DNA of 64,000 nt from NCBI GenBank assembly GCA_036253035.1, contig GCA_036253035.1_4123.1, one strand, 5' to 3'. The notes under the pieces are model-generated. The model did no database searches, was not told the origin of the DNA, and saw nothing but the letters and a program-made list of their open reading frames with translations. The stretch comes from a phage. The position numbers were made by a program, and so were the translations under genes. Position 1 is the stretch's first letter; every line of letters begins with the position of its first letter. Positions 55,591 through 64,000 of the stretch are shown here, one piece after another.

Positions 55591-56280
55591 TTAATCCATT
55601 TTAAGCTTGTTTAGACAGAATGAAATCTGGATTGCTTCACGTGCTGCATCAAACAGTGGGTGATGTAACTCCAACCCATTAATCCCACACGTATTTGCAT
55701 ATGTGATAAATTTATCCAACTGTACCGAAACGATTTCATCCATTTCAATACGAGCTTCTTCATTCAATAAACGTTTCAATGTGCGTGCATTTTCAGGTGC
55801 ATCATACTTCCACAACTCACCAGCGTTCATTAGTTTTAAATGGTTTGCTTGTAAAATACTACAATCGAAGTTACATCCGTTGCCCCAGACTGAATGAGGA
55901 ACTTCTTCACCATAATCATTGTAACGTAATTCTTTCCAGAAATCAACAATACTACTGTATGCAAAAAATCGTCGTGATTGACCATTCGGTCCATACAGTT
56001 CAGGTGCTTTGAGTTTCATAGTACTGGCAACTTCAGAATATGCATTAGAGTATTCTTTCTGACATGTATTCATCCAAAAATCCATTGCACCTGCGTCTGA
56101 TTTTAAACCAGCAGCAACTTGATCCTGGTATGGTAATTTAATATATAAGAACTGACGAATGTCATTTTCAGGTTTACTTGGAACTACTACTGCTGCGTAA
56201 TTTGGGATAATAATATCATAACCGGAAAGTTCAGGTGTTCCAAGAGCTTCAATATCAACACTAATATGACGACGTTTCAT
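55591..56280 (-). CDS. DEDD-family 3'-5' exonuclease (DexA-like)
   Basis: 229 aa; N-terminal ISVDIEALG exo I motif, C-terminal HHPLFDA. Confidence 0.6.
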   Translation of the reverse strand: MKRRHISVDIEALGTPELSGYDIIIPNYAAVVVPSKPENDIRQFLYIKLPYQDQVAAGLKSDAGAMDFWMNTCQKEYSNAYSEVASTMKLKAPELYGPNGQSRRFFAYSSIVDFWKELRYNDYGEEVPHSVWGNGCNFDCSILQANHLKLMNAGELWKYDAPENARTLKRLLNEEARIEMDEIVSVQLDKFITYANTCGINGLELHHPLFDAAREAIQISFCLNKLKMD

Positions 56281-56359: not shown

Positions 56360-57496
56360 TTACTTGTTAGCTTTTTCGGCAATTTCACGAAGAGTGTCTT
56401 CCAGTTCATAGGAAAGTTGTGCAATTTCCTGTTTAGCACGTTCACGTTCCAATTTGCCTTTTTTCTCTTCTTCAATAACTGCTTCAATACTGTCAATCAT
56501 CGTTTTATGTACATTACGCAAGGTTTTAATATCCACAATACCACGGTTGTTTGCCTTTGCTGCGTCCAACATATTTGCTGCAACCATTTTAGAGTTAGTT
56601 TCCAAAAGACGGTTTGTCTCATTATCAATTAGATTGCCTAGTTCATTATCCTTACGTTGACGCTCGGAAATTAACTGTTCAGCCAATTGAGACTTCCATG
56701 CTGGAATAACAACAGATTTTAAATCTTCAAACTTAGAAACAGTGTTCAAGTTTACTTTTTTCATACTCATCAAACGTGGACCACTTAGCTCGCACATCAT
56801 GATAAGACGACGAATCTTATCTTCTTGTTTAGAAAGTGCTTCACAAATCATCTTTTGCTCTTGAATAGCAAAAGAGTCTACATTTTTGTCTGCTTGCATT
56901 TCTAATAATAATGCATCTTGTGTTTTAGTTACTTCTTCTAAACCAACTAATGTATCACGTAATTCAAACAAATATTCTTTGTTTTCATTATATGCTTTAT
57001 CAAGCCATTCACATTCTCCGTGCTGGCGATTAATACCAGTTTGAAGAGTTTTCATAATTTCGTCAATTTGCTCTTTACTGTTTTTGTACTGATCACCTAC
57101 TTTCTGTTGAGCATTAACAAAGAATTTCTTAATACGACCAACAATTGATTTATCTTCTTGAAGACTGTCAATATCAACTGCACGAGTCAACGTAAGAATT
57201 GTGGTGATTGATTTACCAAACTCGGTATTGTCATCCGTTACATTAACTTTAGACATAATTTCATCAGCCAAACGCCCAACAGCAGCACCAGCAGTTGTAC
57301 CAACAGTATTGATGTTTTGAACTGTTAGAGACATAGTATTTCCCTTAACATCTTTCAGTACTGGTAGTGATTTTGTAGTTTGGTTAAAAATATCACTTGC
57401 ATCAATTGTATGACCTTTAGACGCAGTTTTAGTAGTGCGTTTTGCTGATTTAGCTGCGGTGGATGCTTTTTTAGGATTGATTTCTTTCTCGGACAT
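56360..57496 (-). CDS. TelA/KlaA-like (toxic-anion-resistance family) protein, tentative
   Basis: 378 aa, long helical acidic protein; family call from size and composition only. Confidence 0.4.
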   Translation of the reverse strand: MSEKEINPKKASTAAKSAKRTTKTASKGHTIDASDIFNQTTKSLPVLKDVKGNTMSLTVQNINTVGTTAGAAVGRLADEIMSKVNVTDDNTEFGKSITTILTLTRAVDIDSLQEDKSIVGRIKKFFVNAQQKVGDQYKNSKEQIDEIMKTLQTGINRQHGECEWLDKAYNENKEYLFELRDTLVGLEEVTKTQDALLLEMQADKNVDSFAIQEQKMICEALSKQEDKIRRLIMMCELSGPRLMSMKKVNLNTVSKFEDLKSVVIPAWKSQLAEQLISERQRKDNELGNLIDNETNRLLETNSKMVAANMLDAAKANNRGIVDIKTLRNVHKTMIDSIEAVIEEEKKGKLERERAKQEIAQLSYELEDTLREIAEKANK

Positions 57497-58709: not shown

Positions 58710-58805
58710 TATAAAACCTCATAATCAATTAAAATTTACGCTATGGTGATATTGTACATACTTCGACTACACATGTCAACACCTGAAAAGAAAAAAGGAC
58801 GCACC

Positions 58806-59624
58806 TTAGTGCATCCTTTTGTTACTTTTATCCTTGTACCATACAAATGTCTTGACAGGTGGATATTTTTCATTCTTTGGTGGTTCAGGCATGTCGTATA
58901 CAGTTGCATTTCTAAACTTAAGAATGTATGTGTCCATTAAACGGATTATACAATAGTTTAAACATTTTTGTGCTCTTTCTTTCCAAAAATGTTTATATGG
59001 TTCTGGACAACCAAGATAATCAAGTTTATACATACTCATAGCAACTTGCATAAATCTTTGGGCCGAGAATTTTCGCTTATCAATCTTACTTGCTCTGTGT
59101 TGGTCACATGTCCAACTTGATACACCAGGCAAGTGACAAAACAAATCAAAACTAACCATACTATCAAAGTATTTGTTATGACCATGTAACTCACCATAAA
59201 ATACAGCTTCTGACACAGTATCATATAATGAGAAATTTGAATGTATATGTTCATTATCAAAAATACTTTTTAAATCTTTATAAGTTTCTGGAACAGGTGG
59301 CTCAGGTAATACTTCACCGAATACTTCAACACACCATATCTTCCATAAACCTTTTGTAAATTTATTTTCTAATTCTCTATCACTATCAATATAAAAAGTT
59401 TTTTCATTTATGAAAACTTTTCTAGCCATGTATGCTTTAAAAATTGCATCTGGATCAATGTCTTCACGATTTACATCATCCCAGCCTTTACCAATTCTTG
59501 AAATTTCAAATCTACGCATATACATACGACATGCTAAATCTTTAGTAAGGCTGCGACGATACTTTTCATCCTGATGTAATTTGGTTGTTTCGTGAAGAGA
59601 TTTAAGCATATTTAAAATTCTCAT
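58806..59624 (-). CDS. hypothetical protein
   Basis: minus ORF 272 aa. Confidence 0.65.
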   Translation of the reverse strand: MRILNMLKSLHETTKLHQDEKYRRSLTKDLACRMYMRRFEISRIGKGWDDVNREDIDPDAIFKAYMARKVFINEKTFYIDSDRELENKFTKGLWKIWCVEVFGEVLPEPPVPETYKDLKSIFDNEHIHSNFSLYDTVSEAVFYGELHGHNKYFDSMVSFDLFCHLPGVSSWTCDQHRASKIDKRKFSAQRFMQVAMSMYKLDYLGCPEPYKHFWKERAQKCLNYCIIRLMDTYILKFRNATVYDMPEPPKNEKYPPVKTFVWYKDKSNKRMH

Positions 59625-60301
59625 CGCAACACCAAATATTTCCCGTTTCTTCCAATTACATATTGATCACCACTTCGTAGTACTGTATAGCTTTCCCCTA
59701 GTATGGAACTAAGACGCGAAGTGTCTAATTGTGTATCATTCTTTAATAACTTTTTCACATATGTTTCTGAAACAAAACCGCTTCCAGTACTGTAATGTAA
59801 TTTACCATATGCTGTTTTTAATGTCAACATGTTTCCTTCTTTGATTACTGAAACACCAGCATAATCAAGGAACTCACTAATTGAACTAGGAATACCCAAA
59901 TCAATTCTCTGCTGTATTTCTTCAAAATCAACATCGATTGGGTCATTAACACCATATAGTTGTATTTTCCAACCTGGGTCTGGACAAATATTTTCAATAG
60001 TTTTAATTAAACGTAAAAGTTTTTCAGGGAATTCAGCATTTCGTTCCATTTCAACATAAACTTGATATCGACCATCTAAATTTGGTGTTTCTGCTGCTTC
60101 TGTATCAGCTACATCAATAGGTGATTTTTCAATAAAAGAAGATAAATCATATGCTGCATCAAAATTGTTAAGTACCTGAAACATAATAACAATATTACTA
60201 TCTTCAATTTTAGGAGTATATTCATCAACACTAATGATAGGATGAATCAAATCTTTGAGAACTTGCGGACGTAAGCCTTGTTCATTTAATTTCTTTTTCA
60301 T
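59621..60301 (-). CDS. hypothetical protein
   Basis: minus ORF 226 aa. Confidence 0.65.
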   Translation of the reverse strand: MKKKLNEQGLRPQVLKDLIHPIISVDEYTPKIEDSNIVIMFQVLNNFDAAYDLSSFIEKSPIDVADTEAAETPNLDGRYQVYVEMERNAEFPEKLLRLIKTIENICPDPGWKIQLYGVNDPIDVDFEEIQQRIDLGIPSSISEFLDYAGVSVIKEGNMLTLKTAYGKLHYSTGSGFVSETYVKKLLKNDTQLDTSRLSSILGESYTVLRSGDQYVIGRNGKYLVLR

Positions 60302-60864
60302 TACATTCCACCTTCTTGTGTCTCATCCGTTACTTCTACATCTAAATCCACATCATCACCAGTTACAGGTTCTTCAATATTCTCAGGAGAATTCATTGGA
60401 TTACTATTGAATTCTGCTGCCATTAGTTTATATTCATCAAAACTTTCTGGATTAATCAAGTTTCGTGGAATCTGCACTCTAACCAATAGTACTGGTATTC
60501 TTTCATTTTTTGGTATACGTACCGATCCTGATTGTGTCGCAACACTTTTCATATCAGCTTGTCGATTAGGTTCTTTGATAGGAGTTATTTCATAATCAGC
60601 TTTAACATATACTTTAGTACCATGCTTCTCCAAAATAGAGAATGCTGTCGGATCAGGGAAGTTTTCACGATAGTATTTAAAAGTTACAGTACACCAATAC
60701 TTACTTACAATTGGCCCCTCTACCAACTCACCCTCAATAATTCCTTTATACGCATATAAATCATTATCATCGAAATATTTCTCTACAGCAAGAAGTATAT
60801 CTAACATACCACTGTTATCATACAACTGCTGAATAGCATTATCTGTATAATCTAAATCGTCCAT
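60301..60864 (-). CDS. hypothetical acidic protein
   Basis: minus ORF 187 aa. Confidence 0.65.
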   Translation of the reverse strand: MDDLDYTDNAIQQLYDNSGMLDILLAVEKYFDDNDLYAYKGIIEGELVEGPIVSKYWCTVTFKYYRENFPDPTAFSILEKHGTKVYVKADYEITPIKEPNRQADMKSVATQSGSVRIPKNERIPVLLVRVQIPRNLINPESFDEYKLMAAEFNSNPMNSPENIEEPVTGDDVDLDVEVTDETQEGGM

Positions 60865-60960
60865 ATTTTATATTATCCTTAAAAACTAGCACATATAATA
60901 CTATTTACTACTTTTAAAATACAACAAAAGGGGTTTGAATCAAACCCCAATTTAAAAGTT

Positions 60961-61605
60961 TTATTTGTAATATTTACCTAGTACTGAATAAATTTTCAGT
61001 CTAAGTTCTGTCCAGTTTTCGATATATTCAAAACCACTATGATTCTTATACATAGTATTATGAGAACATCCCATCATAACTGATGGAATACCAAGACCCA
61101 TAGCAGTTTCAATATTATTGATATAATCATCAATCATTAGTTTTACATCATATCGTGTTTGTAAATCCTCTAATGCTTCTTTCTTTGATTCATTCATTTC
61201 TATGATAATAATCTCATCAAAGCAGTTTTCACCAAATTCACGCATTAGATTTACATTTCGTAAAACTTCACCATAGCCTTTTTTACCACATTTTGTGAGT
61301 ACTACGAATTTTTCTTTATGAAAACGATCACGTAGCTCTTGTACAATATCAACTGTATTTGGTTCGACTGGCTTTAACAACCCAAACAAATATGATTGTT
61401 GGTTGAACTGTTCAAGAATCTTTTTAACTTCAGGTTGAGGAACACCCAACCAGTCTGATAAATCATATTCTAATGGGTATGGTGTTGATGGTGTGATATT
61501 ATAAGTTTGTTTTACAAACTCAGAAAGCATACCCATATGGTCCAATAGAACTTCATCACAATCAAAAACTATACAACGTGGTTTCATTACATGTTCCCCG
61601 AACAA
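60961..61605 (-). CDS. HAD-superfamily hydrolase (5'-nucleotidase-like)
   Basis: 214 aa; motif I FDCDEVL (DxDxV). Confidence 0.55.
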   Translation of the reverse strand: MFGEHVMKPRCIVFDCDEVLLDHMGMLSEFVKQTYNITPSTPYPLEYDLSDWLGVPQPEVKKILEQFNQQSYLFGLLKPVEPNTVDIVQELRDRFHKEKFVVLTKCGKKGYGEVLRNVNLMREFGENCFDEIIIIEMNESKKEALEDLQTRYDVKLMIDDYINNIETAMGLGIPSVMMGCSHNTMYKNHSGFEYIENWTELRLKIYSVLGKYYK

Positions 61606-62576
61606 ATTAGGTCAATCTCACACAGTAAAGCACTAAGATTCATTTCACGGTCTGATACTGTTGCTTGCTTAACAACTGCATCACGAATTTTAACTTTAAT
61701 CTTCATCAGTGTGATTTCATCAGTACTGAACATTTCAGCATTACGATACAGATAAGAAAAGAATGCATCCATCTCATCATCAGGGATATTTTGTACAATT
61801 TGTTCACGCATTTGGCGAATGTTTCCTGCCTTTAATGCTTCAACAATTGCAGTACGATACCCTGCTGAATTTTCAATACTATCTTCAAGTTTTACTAGCT
61901 TACCATCAACAACTGAACTTTGCAATACGTTTAGTGTTTTACGGAAATCAGGATAGGAAGCATTGATATACTTTTGAACTTGTTCAACACTATCATCACT
62001 ACTCAAATCAACACCTTCTGCTAGAAGAATATTATAAATTCGAGTCATGAATTGTTCCATATCATGCTTTTCGATTGTAATAACTTGAACACGAGAAATG
62101 ATAGGTTTTTGAATTTTATGTGGTTCGTTACTTGTTAAAATAAAGCGAGCATTTTCATGATAGTCTTCCATTACACGTTTCAAACTACCTTGTGCTTTGT
62201 GGTTCATCTGCTCCATTTCTTCAAGAACAAAAATACGATATCTACCAAAACATGATAGCTTTGCTGCGGCATCGATTTTGTCACGAACAGCATCAATGCC
62301 TTCATCGGACATGTTAAGCGTGGTCACATCACTTGGATCAAGGTGTCCATTTTGAACTAGTCCATTAATTAGTACTTTGATCGCAGATGTTTTACCAGTT
62401 CCTGCTGGGCCAAAAAACCCAATATGTGGAATGTCACCAGTCTTAATCCATTCTTCCATTTTCTGGCGTAGTGCATCGTTTTTTGATACATAATCTTCCA
62501 TTGATTGTGGGCGATATTTTTCAGTCCATAGTGTGGTCATTTGTATTTCCTTATGTGTACGTGTTATAGAATCCAA
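61587..62576 (-). CDS. clamp-loader AAA+ ATPase subunit (T4 gp44 / RFC small-subunit-like)
   Basis: 329 aa; EKYRPQ, Walker A GPAGTGKT, FVLEEMEQ, SRVQVITI (SRC-like). Confidence 0.8.
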   Translation of the reverse strand: MDSITRTHKEIQMTTLWTEKYRPQSMEDYVSKNDALRQKMEEWIKTGDIPHIGFFGPAGTGKTSAIKVLINGLVQNGHLDPSDVTTLNMSDEGIDAVRDKIDAAAKLSCFGRYRIFVLEEMEQMNHKAQGSLKRVMEDYHENARFILTSNEPHKIQKPIISRVQVITIEKHDMEQFMTRIYNILLAEGVDLSSDDSVEQVQKYINASYPDFRKTLNVLQSSVVDGKLVKLEDSIENSAGYRTAIVEALKAGNIRQMREQIVQNIPDDEMDAFFSYLYRNAEMFSTDEITLMKIKVKIRDAVVKQATVSDREMNLSALLCEIDLICSGNM

Positions 62577-62836
62577 TCGGCTGAATTATATAATAAAGCC
62601 GTGAAAAGTTCTTCTGTCATTTCCAATTGATTTAATAAAAAATTAAAAGAATTTGCCTTATTTTTAATCCCAGTACTTTCAGCTTGGGCTGATGCAACTA
62701 ATAAAACTTTAAACATATCATGTGAAACTTCATATACATATTTGGTATTTTTTCTATCTTCAAACATGAATCTTCCGTTTTTAGATACTAATGTTACATC
62801 CTTGAAACTAAATTTTCCATCATCAGTTATCATCAA
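62564..62836 (-). CDS. hypothetical protein
   Basis: minus ORF 90 aa. Confidence 0.5.
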   Translation of the reverse strand: MMITDDGKFSFKDVTLVSKNGRFMFEDRKNTKYVYEVSHDMFKVLLVASAQAESTGIKNKANSFNFLLNQLEMTEELFTALLYNSADWIL

Positions 62837-62889
62837 AATCTGTCCAAATAAAAAGCCCAGATATTCATCCGAGCTTTAATTATATTTTA

Positions 62890-63216
62890 TTAACGACCAA
62901 AGGTTAGCATTTTAGTTCGTGGATCTTCATCTGAAACTAAACTAACTGCGGCTGGGTAATCAACCAAGTTTAATTCAATACCATCAACTTCAATAGTTCT
63001 TGACCATCGACCATGATCAATTAAAATCCATTGACCTTCTTTAATATCAGTAATGTCTTCGCCTACAGAATAAACTTTTGCCCAGCGAGAACGAATACCT
63101 CTAATTTTACCGTCATCGTTTGTTAAAACGATACCACCTGCTGTTTTGCGTTCACCATGTTCCAGTTCAGTTACCAGTACTTTACCTTTACATGCAGTCA
63201 TTACTTTATTAGTCAT
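62890..63216 (-). CDS. GroES-like co-chaperonin (Cpn10 family)
   Basis: 108 aa; KTAGGIVLT mobile-loop-adjacent motif, size and beta-rich profile. Confidence 0.55.
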   Translation of the reverse strand: MTNKVMTACKGKVLVTELEHGERKTAGGIVLTNDDGKIRGIRSRWAKVYSVGEDITDIKEGQWILIDHGRWSRTIEVDGIELNLVDYPAAVSLVSDEDPRTKMLTFGR

Positions 63217-63224
63217 TTAATATA

Positions 63225-63569
63225 TTACTCCTGATCTTTGGTTCTAGCTCGACGTGGTGCTTTCTTCTCTTCAGAAACCTCAGCTTCTTGTTCTTCGGGC
63301 TTAACTTCAAAACTCTCATCATCCCATACTTCATCCGTACCATGTTCAGTACTATGAAGTTGATGTTCAGGGATATAATCAGGAATTTGCATTTCTCGTT
63401 CTTTTTCTTGAATCAACTCTTCACGAGTTTTAATAATTGTTCCACCTGAACCGATTTTATCACCACGTGCGTTTAAATTAGCATTACCTAATGCTACCTG
63501 ATGTTGATTTTGGTACTTGAGCATATCCATGTCAATTGTTGTACCACGATAAGTTGTATGTTTAGACAT
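63225..63569 (-). CDS. hypothetical acidic protein
   Basis: minus ORF 114 aa. Confidence 0.55.
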   Translation of the reverse strand: MSKHTTYRGTTIDMDMLKYQNQHQVALGNANLNARGDKIGSGGTIIKTREELIQEKEREMQIPDYIPEHQLHSTEHGTDEVWDDESFEVKPEEQEAEVSEEKKAPRRARTKDQE

Positions 63570-63614
63570 ATCAAAATCCTTTTATTGTATGTGTGATATA
63601 AGCCTACAATAAAC

Positions 63615-63625
63615 ATTATATCACA
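63615..63625 (-). promoter_or_regulatory. extended -10 promoter element (TGTGATATAAT)
   Basis: minus catgTGtgaTATAATgttt; inverted copy of the same motif 16 bp away. Confidence 0.4.
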
Positions 63626-63632
63626 TGTTTTT

Positions 63633-64000
63633 CTACCATTTCAAAAATTCGTTAACATCAAGTTCGTACTTCAATGAATCTACCATATGTAGTCCAATCA
63701 AAAACAAACAGTATGATGCAACAGAGCTTCCACGACCTAGACCCCAAAAGATCTCATTTTCTTCCATATAATCAACAAGCCATATCATACATCTTAATAG
63801 CTTTGTCATATTATAATATTCATATAAATCTAGTTCATACTCAACACGCTTTCGTGCTTCATCTGATGTACATTTTTGTAAGAAAAAGTCACGTAGATTT
63901 ATATTATCGTATACTGGATCATAACGCCAAAGTTCATGATTTTTATCATGCTCGATAGTATAATCCAGCATACGTTGTTCTAAGCCAAATTTTTTACAGT
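63633..64000 (-). CDS. DnaE (family-C polymerase) N-terminal-region homolog, C-terminal part of an ORF that starts beyond window end
   Basis: frame open to 64000; ..RVEYELDLYEYYNM..IWLVDYMEE..GLGRGSSVASYCL..ELDVNEFL parallels E. coli DnaE ..RLETELQVINQMGF..YFLIVMEF..GPGRGSGAGSLVAYAL..DLLFERFL as I recall it; ORF stops where PDFDVDF would follow. Confidence 0.5.
   Translation of the reverse strand, partial: CKKFGLEQRMLDYTIEHDKNHELWRYDPVYDNINLRDFFLQKCTSDEARKRVEYELDLYEYYNMTKLLRCMIWLVDYMEENEIFWGLGRGSSVASYCLFLIGLHMVDSLKYELDVNEFLKW

What the first reader, a model, noticed from the sequence alone, without database searches (positions are those of the whole stretch)
59621..63216. Clamp loader without a recognisable sliding clamp or small subunit beside it
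The gp44/RFC-like ATPase is flanked by a HAD hydrolase, a GroES-like co-chaperonin and unassigned 187-aa and 226-aa proteins, whose sizes match T4 gp62 and gp45 but whose sequences I could not match. Either the partners are highly diverged or the locus is rearranged relative to T4.
Basis: inference. Interest (0 to 1): 0.35.

Follow-up and report, generated by a model that had tools for sequence, protein, structure and literature searches.

The report
Clamp loader; its clamp lies elsewhere
This jumbo coliphage has a genuine DNA clamp-loader gene, but the two same-sized genes beside it are virion-associated proteins of unknown function, and the real sliding clamp sits about 49 kb away next to the DNA polymerase gene, so the locus is ordinary and largely already described.

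Summary
The window comes from an Asteriusvirus (PBECO4/121Q/RaK2-like jumbo myovirus; 99.2% identity to PBECO4). A gp44/RFC-type AAA+ clamp-loader gene (61587-62540, minus strand) is flanked by a GroES-like gene, a HAD/NT5C nucleotidase, and 187-aa and 226-aa ORFs with no Pfam hits.

The size match to T4 gp62 and gp45 is a coincidence:
- The 226-aa model is confident and the 187-aa model moderate; neither shows a clamp or clamp-loader fold.
- Profile-profile tests against the gp45 and gp62 families are negative.
- A terminator-like hairpin separates the pair from gp44-HAD.
- Their phAPEC6 orthologues were found in virions by mass spectrometry.

The actual clamp is a highly diverged gp45 homologue (PBECO4 gp509, 243 aa). 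It lies two small ORFs downstream of the DNA polymerase, about 49 kb away and outside the window. My profile comparison supports this weakly but well above controls. A 2026 supplementary table reports an HHpred hit to RB69 gp45 (E 1e-31).

No gp62-like small subunit and no second RFC-like paralogue turned up in about 90% of the genome. The 187/226 pair is always downstream of gp44 in 55-60 diverse environmental phage contigs. It remains functionally unexplained.

The parts
61587..62540 (-). gp44/RFC-small-subunit-type AAA+ clamp-loader ATPase (317 aa)
   Evidence: phrog_168 1e-78. Best PDB hits are archaeal RFC small subunit 4e-31 and T4 gp44 4e-19. hhalign against T4 gp44 gives prob 99.8% over 293 columns. 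Walker A K50, sensor-1 N138 and the Arg finger R150 are invariant in 81 homologues. Walker B is EEME here, against DEAD in distant relatives.
62564..62836 (-). 90-aa ORF upstream of gp44 in the same terminator-bounded unit. It overlaps the long TTG-start reading of gp44 and lies 24 nt from the preferred ATG at 62540. Function unknown; confined to RaK2-like phages.
   Evidence: phrog_16539, no Pfam hit. Present in only 9 close loci.
60961..61587 (-). HAD-superfamily 5'-nucleotidase (NT5C-like). Its start overlaps the gp44 stop by 1 nt.
   Evidence: PF06941 1e-8, above its cutoff. Downstream of gp44 in 44 of 86 loci, at variable distance.
60930..60948 (-). Terminator-like GC hairpin plus T-run, between the HAD gene and the 187-aa gene
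   Evidence: sequence read.
60301..60864 (-). p187: virion-associated protein of unknown function. It has an alpha+beta core and a disordered acidic C-terminal tail. Not a gp62 homologue.
   Evidence: AF2 pLDDT 74.5, with residues 158-187 disordered. No PDB fold match. hhalign against the gp62 family gives prob <=0.1%. The phAPEC6 orthologue gp150c was seen in virions with 5 peptides and 34.8% coverage. phrog_12928 'virion structural protein'.
59621..60301 (-). p226: virion-associated two-domain protein of unknown function. Its start overlaps the p187 stop by 1 nt. Not a sliding clamp.
   Evidence: AF2 pLDDT 89.2, pTM 0.85. No clamp among PDB or BFVD matches; only uncharacterised orthologues, including one in Atu_ph07. 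hhalign against the gp45 family gives prob 0.25%. The phAPEC6 orthologue gp149c was seen in virions with 4 peptides and 29.2% coverage.
58806..59624 (-). 272-aa ORF (RefSeq start gives 267 aa), the third gene of the p187-p226 unit. Unknown function; RaK2-like phages only. A terminator-like hairpin follows at 58793-58820.
62890..63216 (-). GroES/gp31-like co-chaperonin, followed by a terminator-like hairpin at 62852-62877
   Evidence: Pfam Cpn10 above its cutoff; phrog_931 1.5e-20. Upstream of gp44 in 79 of 86 loci. Terminator.
63225..63569 (-). p114: conserved unknown protein, upstream of the GroES-like gene in 78 of 86 loci

Best explanation
The region holds two separate transcription units.

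Unit 1 (90-aa ORF, gp44-like gene, HAD nucleotidase) encodes the ATPase subunit of an RFC/T4-gp44-type clamp loader. The protein keeps the Walker A lysine, a Walker B with a conservative D-to-E change, sensor 1, the trans-acting arginine finger and the C-terminal collar region. It therefore presumably assembles into a multimeric ring that opens and loads a trimeric PCNA/gp45-type clamp.

Unit 2 (p187, p226 and a 272-aa ORF) is bounded by terminator-like hairpins. It encodes a translationally coupled pair of proteins with no structural relatives, and their orthologues are found in purified virions. They are neither the clamp nor the gp62 small subunit.

The cognate clamp is a highly diverged gp45 homologue of 243 aa (PBECO4 gp509). 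It lies two small ORFs downstream of the family-B DNA polymerase, about 49 kb from gp44 and outside this window. So the T4 45-44-62 cluster is dispersed in this lineage. The fifth (gp62-position) subunit of the loader is unidentified.

Shown: the identities, folds, synteny and virion detection. Inferred: the operon boundaries, loader assembly, and the pairing of gp44 with gp509.
For: - gp44 identity and motifs.
- Terminator-like hairpins on the minus strand at 62852-62877, 60930-60948 and 58793-58820.
- p226 and p187 models, with no clamp, RFC or gp62 fold match.
- Negative profile-profile tests with a positive control.
- Virion mass spectrometry in phAPEC6 (gp149c, gp150c) and a structural protein CBB_334 two genes from CBB's gp44 homologue. 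CBB_334's equivalence to p187 or p226 was not established.
- Clamp candidate gp509:
  - 71-78% identical among RaK2-like phages.
  - Homologues downstream of the polymerase in 48 of 80 distant loci.
  - hhalign against the gp45 family: E 6e-5 to 2.6e-3 over 176-227 collinear columns. The reversed control gives E 0.65 and 12 control families give E >=0.037.
  - Annotated 'sliding clamp' in GenBank PP777464 and PV764938.
  - HHpred hit to RB69 gp45 (1B77_B), listed as 1e-31 (100), in Supplementary Table S2 of PMC13070987.
Against: - My own profile-profile support for gp509 as a clamp is only 11-38% probability.
- Terminators are consensus matches only.
- The virion preparations also contained topoisomerase and RecA-like proteins, so virion detection does not by itself exclude a DNA-metabolism role for p187 and p226.
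- The p187-p226 pair is always downstream of gp44, on the same strand, in 55-60 of 86 diverse loci, and p187 directly follows gp44 in four of them. That could reflect a functional link.
Confidence: 0.8

Rival explanations
1. p226 is a highly diverged gp45-type sliding clamp and p187 a diverged gp62 small subunit.
For: Sizes of 187 and 226 aa against T4's 187 and 228 aa. They lie downstream of gp44 on the same strand throughout the clade, and p187 is directly adjacent to gp44 in L041, L045, L053 and L060. There is a short helix-motif resemblance between p226 48-75 and gp45 44-74 (28 columns, prob 19%).
Against: The confident p226 model lacks the clamp topology, and Foldseek finds no clamp in PDB or BFVD. 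hhalign full-length probabilities are <=4% and <=0.5%. Many distant p226 homologues lack the whole C-terminal domain, which is impossible for a two-domain clamp protomer. A much better gp45 homologue exists elsewhere. Both proteins are virion-associated.
Confidence: 0.03
2. p187 and p226 are non-homologous accessory subunits of the clamp loader or replisome, for example a replacement for gp62. Their presence in virions would then be carry-over or co-packaging with DNA.
For: Strict synteny with gp44 in 55-60 of 86 loci whose gp44 is only 34-40% identical. No gp62 homologue and no second RFC-like paralogue in about 314 of 348 kb. p187 has an acidic disordered tail like many replisome proteins. 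Virion preparations also contained topoisomerase and RecA-like proteins.
Against: A terminator-like hairpin separates them from gp44-HAD. The distance from gp44 varies between 0.9 and 10 kb, with unrelated inserts. Detection in virions is reported for related phages. There is no fold similarity to any clamp-loader component.
Confidence: 0.08
3. The phage encodes no clamp of its own, and the gp44-like loader loads the host beta clamp.
For: Older papers report no gp45 homologue in RaK2-like phages. The conserved block places gp44 beside a fragment of a minimal Pol III alpha.
Against: The loader is closer to RFC and gp44 than to DnaX (4e-31 and 4e-19 against 2e-11). A gp45-like protein is conserved next to the polymerase.
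Confidence: 0.03

Closest known systems
Bacteriophage T4 clamp loader/clamp system (gp44-gp62 loader, gp45 clamp; genes 45-44-62 adjacent)
   Same: The gp44-type AAA+ subunit has the same length (317 against 319 aa) and aligns end to end. A gp45-family clamp of similar length exists (243 against 228 aa). The same phage also has T4-like gp43, gp41, gp61, gp32, gp46/47 and gp55 homologues.
   Different: The genes are dispersed: the clamp lies about 49 kb away beside the polymerase. No gp62 homologue is detectable. The gp44 is more similar to archaeal/eukaryotic RFC small subunits than to T4 gp44. In the RaK2-like subgroup Walker B is EEME and SRC is SRV.
Archaeal/eukaryotic RFC small subunit
   Same: Best sequence match (4e-31), with RFC boxes including LWxEKYRP, GPxGTGKT, the Walker B position, sensor 1 and SRC-like motifs.
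   Different: No large-subunit paralogue is found. This is a phage context, and the cognate clamp is gp45-like rather than PCNA by sequence.
RaK2-like 'virion structural proteins' phrog_13138 and phrog_12928 (phAPEC6 gp149c and gp150c)
   Same: p226 and p187 are full-length members (7.7e-121 and 2.9e-89) and 99% identical to proteins of sequenced Asteriusvirus genomes.
   Different: Nothing differs. These families simply have no known function, location in the virion, or structural relatives.

Membership tests
RFC/gp44 clamp-loader AAA+ ATPase (tested on the 61587-62540 protein) | Walker A P-loop GxxGxGK[ST] | tested here: met
   GPAGTGKTS is present. G47, G49 and K50 are invariant in 81 homologues.
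RFC/gp44 clamp-loader AAA+ ATPase (tested on the 61587-62540 protein) | Walker B hhhhDE | tested here: inconclusive
   The sequence is FVLEEME, so the Asp is replaced by Glu in the RaK2-like subgroup (9 of 81). Distant relatives have LDEAD. The change is conservative, and its effect on activity was not tested.
RFC/gp44 clamp-loader AAA+ ATPase (tested on the 61587-62540 protein) | Sensor 1 and the SRC-motif arginine finger, which acts in trans in an oligomer | tested here: met
   T136, N138 and R150 are invariant in 81 sequences. The motif is SRV here and SRC in relatives.
RFC/gp44 clamp-loader AAA+ ATPase (tested on the 61587-62540 protein) | Full-length homology including the lid and C-terminal collar | tested here: met
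   hhalign against T4 gp44 gives prob 99.8% over 293 of 317 columns. phrog_168 covers residues 12-326 of the 329-aa TTG-start translation.
RFC/gp44 clamp-loader AAA+ ATPase (tested on the 61587-62540 protein) | Pentameric assembly that opens and loads a clamp | not testable with these tools
   This needs biochemistry or complex prediction.
gp45/PCNA sliding clamp (tested on p226, 59621-60301) | Two topologically identical beta-alpha-beta-beta-beta x2 domains per protomer | tested here: not met
   The AF2 model (pLDDT 89) has a beta-beta-alpha-beta-beta-alpha-beta N-domain and a different C-domain. There is no clamp among the top 50 Foldseek matches shown for PDB or for BFVD. Many homologues lack the C-domain.
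gp45/PCNA sliding clamp (tested on p226, 59621-60301) | Profile similarity to the gp45 family | tested here: not met
   hhalign prob 0.25%, E 0.24, over 22 columns. No Pfam DNA_PPF, gp45-slide_C or PCNA hit in 49 members.
gp45/PCNA sliding clamp (tested on PBECO4 gp509, outside the window) | Profile similarity to the gp45 family over the full length | tested here: inconclusive
   hhalign prob 11.5-38%, E 6e-5 to 2.6e-3, over 176-227 collinear columns, against controls at <=0.7%. An HHpred hit to 1B77_B, listed as 1e-31 (100), is reported in the supplement of PMC13070987. The structure was not predicted here.
T4 gp62 clamp-loader small subunit (tested on p187, 60301-60864) | Sequence or profile similarity to gp62 | tested here: not met
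   hhalign against T4 gp62 and against a 5-member gp62 family gives prob <=0.5%.
T4 gp62 clamp-loader small subunit (tested on p187, 60301-60864) | Fold matching gp62 in the T4 clamp-loader structures (e.g. PDB 3U5Z) | tested here: not met
   No clamp-loader chain appears among the Foldseek PDB matches shown. The best E is 0.09 and TM is below 0.25. The model is of moderate confidence (pLDDT 74.5).
T4 gp62 clamp-loader small subunit (tested on p187, 60301-60864) | Gene immediately downstream of gene 44 and co-transcribed with it | tested here: not met
   In the window the HAD gene and a terminator-like hairpin intervene. p187 is directly adjacent to gp44 in only 4 of 60 loci.
HAD superfamily, NT5C 5'-nucleotidase (tested on 60961-61587) | Pfam PF06941 above its gathering score | tested here: met
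   35.7 bits against a cutoff of 24.8.
Cpn10/GroES (tested on 62890-63216) | Pfam PF00166 above its gathering score | tested here: met
   24.8 bits against a cutoff of 21.1. The match is partial, covering residues 8-66. phrog_931 'head morphogenesis' 1.5e-20.

The most novel reading that the evidence does not exclude
This large clade of T4-related jumbo phages (RaK2-like phages plus many environmental contigs) may run its RFC-like clamp loader without any gp62-type subunit. Either the gp44 ring would be homo-oligomeric, or the fifth position would be filled by a non-homologous protein from the conserved gp44 block (p187/p226, p114 or the 90-aa ORF). The p187-p226 pair could then have a double life as a replisome accessory and a packaged virion protein.
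Probability: 0.15. Interest if true: 0.55.

Novelty: already known. Interest (0 to 1): 0.2.

Why it matters
The finding itself is ordinary. The clamp loader has been annotated in every Asteriusvirus genome. The lack of neighbouring gp45 and gp62 was noted in 2013 and 2017. The clamp has since been spotted by HHpred, and the two neighbours are listed as virion proteins.

Three points are useful here:
1. The tempting size-based assignment of the 187-aa and 226-aa ORFs as gp62 and gp45 is refuted with explicit tests.
2. The clamp gene sits immediately after the polymerase gene across the whole clade, and most database annotations (RefSeq included) still call it hypothetical.
3. Two small open questions remain: what replaces gp62, and what the deeply conserved, structurally orphan p187-p226 virion pair does.

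Tried and rejected
- Pfam, PHROGs and PDB sequence searches of p187 and p226, singly and as 49-50-member profiles: nothing beyond their own PHROGs.
- Foldseek of both AF2 models against PDB, and of p226 against BFVD: no clamp or loader. There was only a weak resemblance of the p226 N-domain to Rpb11/RpoL/S6/eIF1-like alpha+beta domains (prob about 0.9, target-normalised TM about 0.5, E >0.04), which I do not trust as homology.
- gp45-family HMM (116 sequences) against all ORFs of 86 gp44 loci and about 314 kb of the PBECO4 genome: only noise. The one E 0.016 hit was a P-loop kinase-like protein.
- T4 gp62 phmmer and a 5-member gp62 profile against 49 neighbourhood families: the best hit was the HAD family (local prob 9.9%, E 3e-3, 46 columns), not significant after multiple tests and contradicted by its clear NT5C identity.
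- Search for a second RFC-like paralogue: none.
- Profile HMM of the gp509 family against PDB and Pfam: no hit. Only profile-profile comparison sees gp45.
- Test for internal duplication in the gp509 and gp45 halves: no power, because even the gp45 halves do not match each other.
- T4 late-promoter TATAAATA upstream of p187: absent. The gap holds only GTAAATA, one mismatch from the ATAAATA consensus reported for CBB.
- Idea that p226 carries a T4-style capsid-targeting leader cleaved after L-x-E: 34 of 49 homologues have [LIVM]xE just before the conserved G/A/S-L, but 15 start exactly at that point with no leader. This stays speculative.
- Not fetched: PBECO4 150-176 kb and 340-348 kb.


Full report
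**Source and anatomy.** Window 59000-64000 is 99.2% identical to Escherichia phage PBECO4 (NC_027364, 235282-240282) and to about 20 other Asteriusvirus genomes. These are about 350-kb RaK2-like jumbo myoviruses. All genes in the region are on the minus strand. In transcription order they are:
- the end of a minimal Pol III alpha fragment (63633 to the window end)
- p114 (63225-63569)
- a GroES-like gene (62890-63216)
- a 90-aa ORF (62564-62836)
- the gp44-like gene (61587-62540)
- a HAD/NT5C gene (60961-61587, 1-nt overlap with gp44)
- a 96-nt gap
- p187 (60301-60864)
- p226 (59621-60301, 1-nt overlap with p187)
- a 272-aa ORF (58806-59624)

Terminator-like hairpins lie after the GroES-like gene (62852-62877), after the HAD gene (60930-60948) and after the 272-aa ORF (58793-58820). 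This suggests two units: [90 aa-gp44-HAD] and [p187-p226-p272]. The boundaries are inferred from consensus matches only.

**The clamp loader is real.** The 317-aa protein matches phrog_168 'clamp loader' at 1e-78. In the PDB it matches archaeal RFC small subunit at 4e-31, yeast and human RFC2-5 at 1e-30 to 1e-19, T4 gp44 at 4e-19 and DnaX at 2e-11. Its family aligns to T4 gp44 over 293 columns with 99.8% probability. Across 81 homologues the Walker A lysine, sensor-1 Thr/Asn and the SRC arginine are invariant. The RaK2-like subgroup has EEME and SRV where distant relatives have the canonical DEAD and SRC. An arginine finger implies function in an oligomer. This last step is an inference from established AAA+ and RFC knowledge.

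**The two neighbours are not the clamp or the small subunit.**
- *Sequence searches.* Neither has any Pfam or PDB sequence hit.
- *p226 model.* With a 47-sequence alignment AlphaFold gives a confident model (pLDDT 89.2, pTM 0.85). It has a beta-beta-alpha-beta-beta-alpha-beta N-domain and a distinct C-domain.
- *p187 model.* The model is moderate (pLDDT 74.5). It has two N-terminal helices, a beta-rich core and a disordered acidic tail.
- *Fold searches.* Foldseek against 350,542 PDB chains found no match with E <=0.001 for either, and no clamp, RFC or gp62 chain among the matches shown. BFVD returned only uncharacterised orthologues of p226, including one from Agrobacterium phage Atu_ph07.
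- *Profile-profile tests.* p226 family against a gp45 family gives probability 0.25-4%. p187 family against T4 gp62 or a five-member gp62 family gives <=0.5%.
- *Domain architecture.* Many distant p226 homologues lack the C-terminal domain altogether. That is incompatible with a two-domain clamp protomer.
- *Virion detection.* The phAPEC6 orthologues were identified by ESI-MS/MS in purified virions: gp149c with 4 peptides and 29.2% coverage, gp150c with 5 peptides and 34.8% (PMC7247149). A structural protein, CBB_334, lies two genes from CBB's gp44 homologue CBB_332; I did not establish which of the two proteins it corresponds to. Sources name homologues 'virion structural protein' in CBB, GAP32 and XaC1.
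- *Caveat.* The phAPEC6 virion list also contains a topoisomerase subunit and a RecA-like protein, so virion association is not proof of a purely structural role.

**Conserved context.** Using the RFC-box peptides of gp44 I retrieved 80 IMG/VR loci whose gp44 is only 34-40% identical. The order Pol III alpha fragment, p114, GroES-like, gp44, variable insert, p187, p226, all on one strand, is kept in 55-60 of 86 loci. The HAD gene is present in 44. p187 starts 0.9-10 kb after gp44 and abuts it in four loci. The pair therefore belongs to an ancient conserved block with gp44. This is why I keep an 8% rival in which it is a non-homologous replisome accessory. None of these loci contains a gp45 or gp62 homologue.

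**Where the clamp is.** The RaK2 and CBB papers state that gp45 and gp62 homologues are undetectable (PMC3622015, PMC5259590). RefSeq annotates no clamp in any part of PBECO4 that I read. Among hypothetical proteins of the replication module, gp509 (243 aa, pI 5.5) lies two small ORFs downstream of the family-B polymerase gp512 and looked clamp-like by eye.

The evidence for gp509 is as follows:
- It is 71-78% identical among RaK2-like phages, as conserved as gp44.
- A homologue follows the polymerase in 48 of 80 distant polymerase loci.
- With 49-53 diverse members, hhalign aligns it collinearly to the gp45 family over 176-227 columns. Probabilities are 11.5-38% and E-values 6e-5 to 2.6e-3. 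A column-reversed control gives 0.1%, and twelve unrelated families of similar size give <=0.7%.
- HMM-to-sequence methods see nothing, which explains the older negative reports.
- Independently, GenBank PP777464 (fEgEco12, 94.7% identical) calls it 'sliding clamp protein'. PV764938 (Sinorhizobium phage Phosso, 31% identical, also just after the polymerase) calls it a sliding clamp.
- Supplementary Table S2 of the fEgEco12 paper lists an HHpred hit to RB69 gp45 (1B77_B), entered as 1e-31 (100). The same table leaves the p187 and p226 orthologues (Gp427, Gp428) as hypothetical (PMC13070987).

gp509 is 100% identical in at least 13 Asteriusvirus genomes, so the phage of this window almost certainly encodes it. 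The gene is at PBECO4 287496-288227, about 49 kb from gp44 and about 47 kb beyond the window end.

**What remains open.** No gp62-like protein was found.
- T4 gp62 phmmer found nothing.
- A gp62 family profile was compared with 49 conserved neighbourhood families. The best hit was the HAD family at a level expected by chance after 49 tests.
- No second RFC-like paralogue exists in about 314 of 348 kb.
- gp62 is very poorly conserved even among T4-like phages: 29% identity in phiAS5, and only 130 aa in cyanophage P-TIM40. A diverged gp62 is therefore hard to exclude.

The function of p187 and p226 is unknown.
- The p226 family has an invariant D26, K31, D52, D66, V81, E84 and R87 in its N-domain.
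- In 34 of 49 members an [LIVM]-x-E sits immediately before the conserved N-terminus. This is reminiscent of T4 gp21 prohead-protease sites, and the phage has a gp21-like protease. However, 15 members start exactly at that point, so this is only a lead.

**Verdict.** The size-based interpretation is wrong, and the 'rearranged locus' alternative is right for the clamp. The facts are essentially all in the literature or in database annotations already. Interest is low. There is a modest residual question about the missing fifth loader subunit and about the orphan virion pair.

Noticed in passing
window 63633-64000 (ORF runs off the window end), minus strand: This is a fragment of the split 'minimal Pol III alpha' described for these phages (phrog_11127 7e-60). 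The family of about 172 aa lies upstream of p114, the GroES-like gene and gp44 in 78 of 86 loci, so the clamp loader is persistently linked to it.
   Followed up: partly
window 61587-62540 (gp44), residues 107-110 and 149-151: The RaK2-like subgroup alone has Walker B EEME instead of DEAD, and SRV instead of SRC. Seventy-two distant relatives keep the canonical motifs. The functional consequence is unknown.
   Followed up: partly
PBECO4 286924-287259 (L122:925-1260), outside the window: A second GroES-like gene (gp507) lies two genes after the clamp gene, while another GroES-like gene (window 62890-63216) lies just before the clamp-loader operon. The two are distant paralogues (33% identity over 63 aa, E 0.002).
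   Followed up: partly
loci L025-L082, p226 homologues (alignment A4): About half of the distant p226 homologues replace the C-terminal domain with a short segment ending in a conserved ...LNEMRxAAGI(L) C-terminus. This may be a linear binding motif.
   Followed up: no
window 60301-60864 (p187), residues 158-187: The C-terminal tail is disordered and strongly acidic. It varies in sequence but is present in nearly all 50 homologues, as in many ssDNA-binding and replisome proteins.
   Followed up: no
whole window: The T4 late-promoter octamer TATAAATA occurs only 3 times, against 12.2 +/- 3.3 expected from shuffles. All 100 shuffles had at least 3.
   Followed up: no
window 56360-57496 and 55591-56280, minus strand: There is a TelA-like toxic-anion-resistance protein (PF05816 2e-37) and, after it, a 229-aa protein that RefSeq annotates as a 3'-5' exoribonuclease. 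Both lie just downstream of the p187-p226-p272 unit.
   Followed up: no
window 60961-61587 (HAD) against the gp62 family: The HAD family, which occupies the gp62 position directly after gp44, gave the best (still insignificant) hhalign hit to a gp62 profile: local prob 9.9%, 46 columns. I judge it to be chance, given the clear NT5C match.
   Followed up: partly
L129 and 25 other polymerase loci (cluster 7, about 320 aa): In 26 distant loci an ORF of about 320 aa lies between the DNA polymerase and the clamp homologue. It was not examined; it could be a mobile endonuclease or another replication factor.
   Followed up: no
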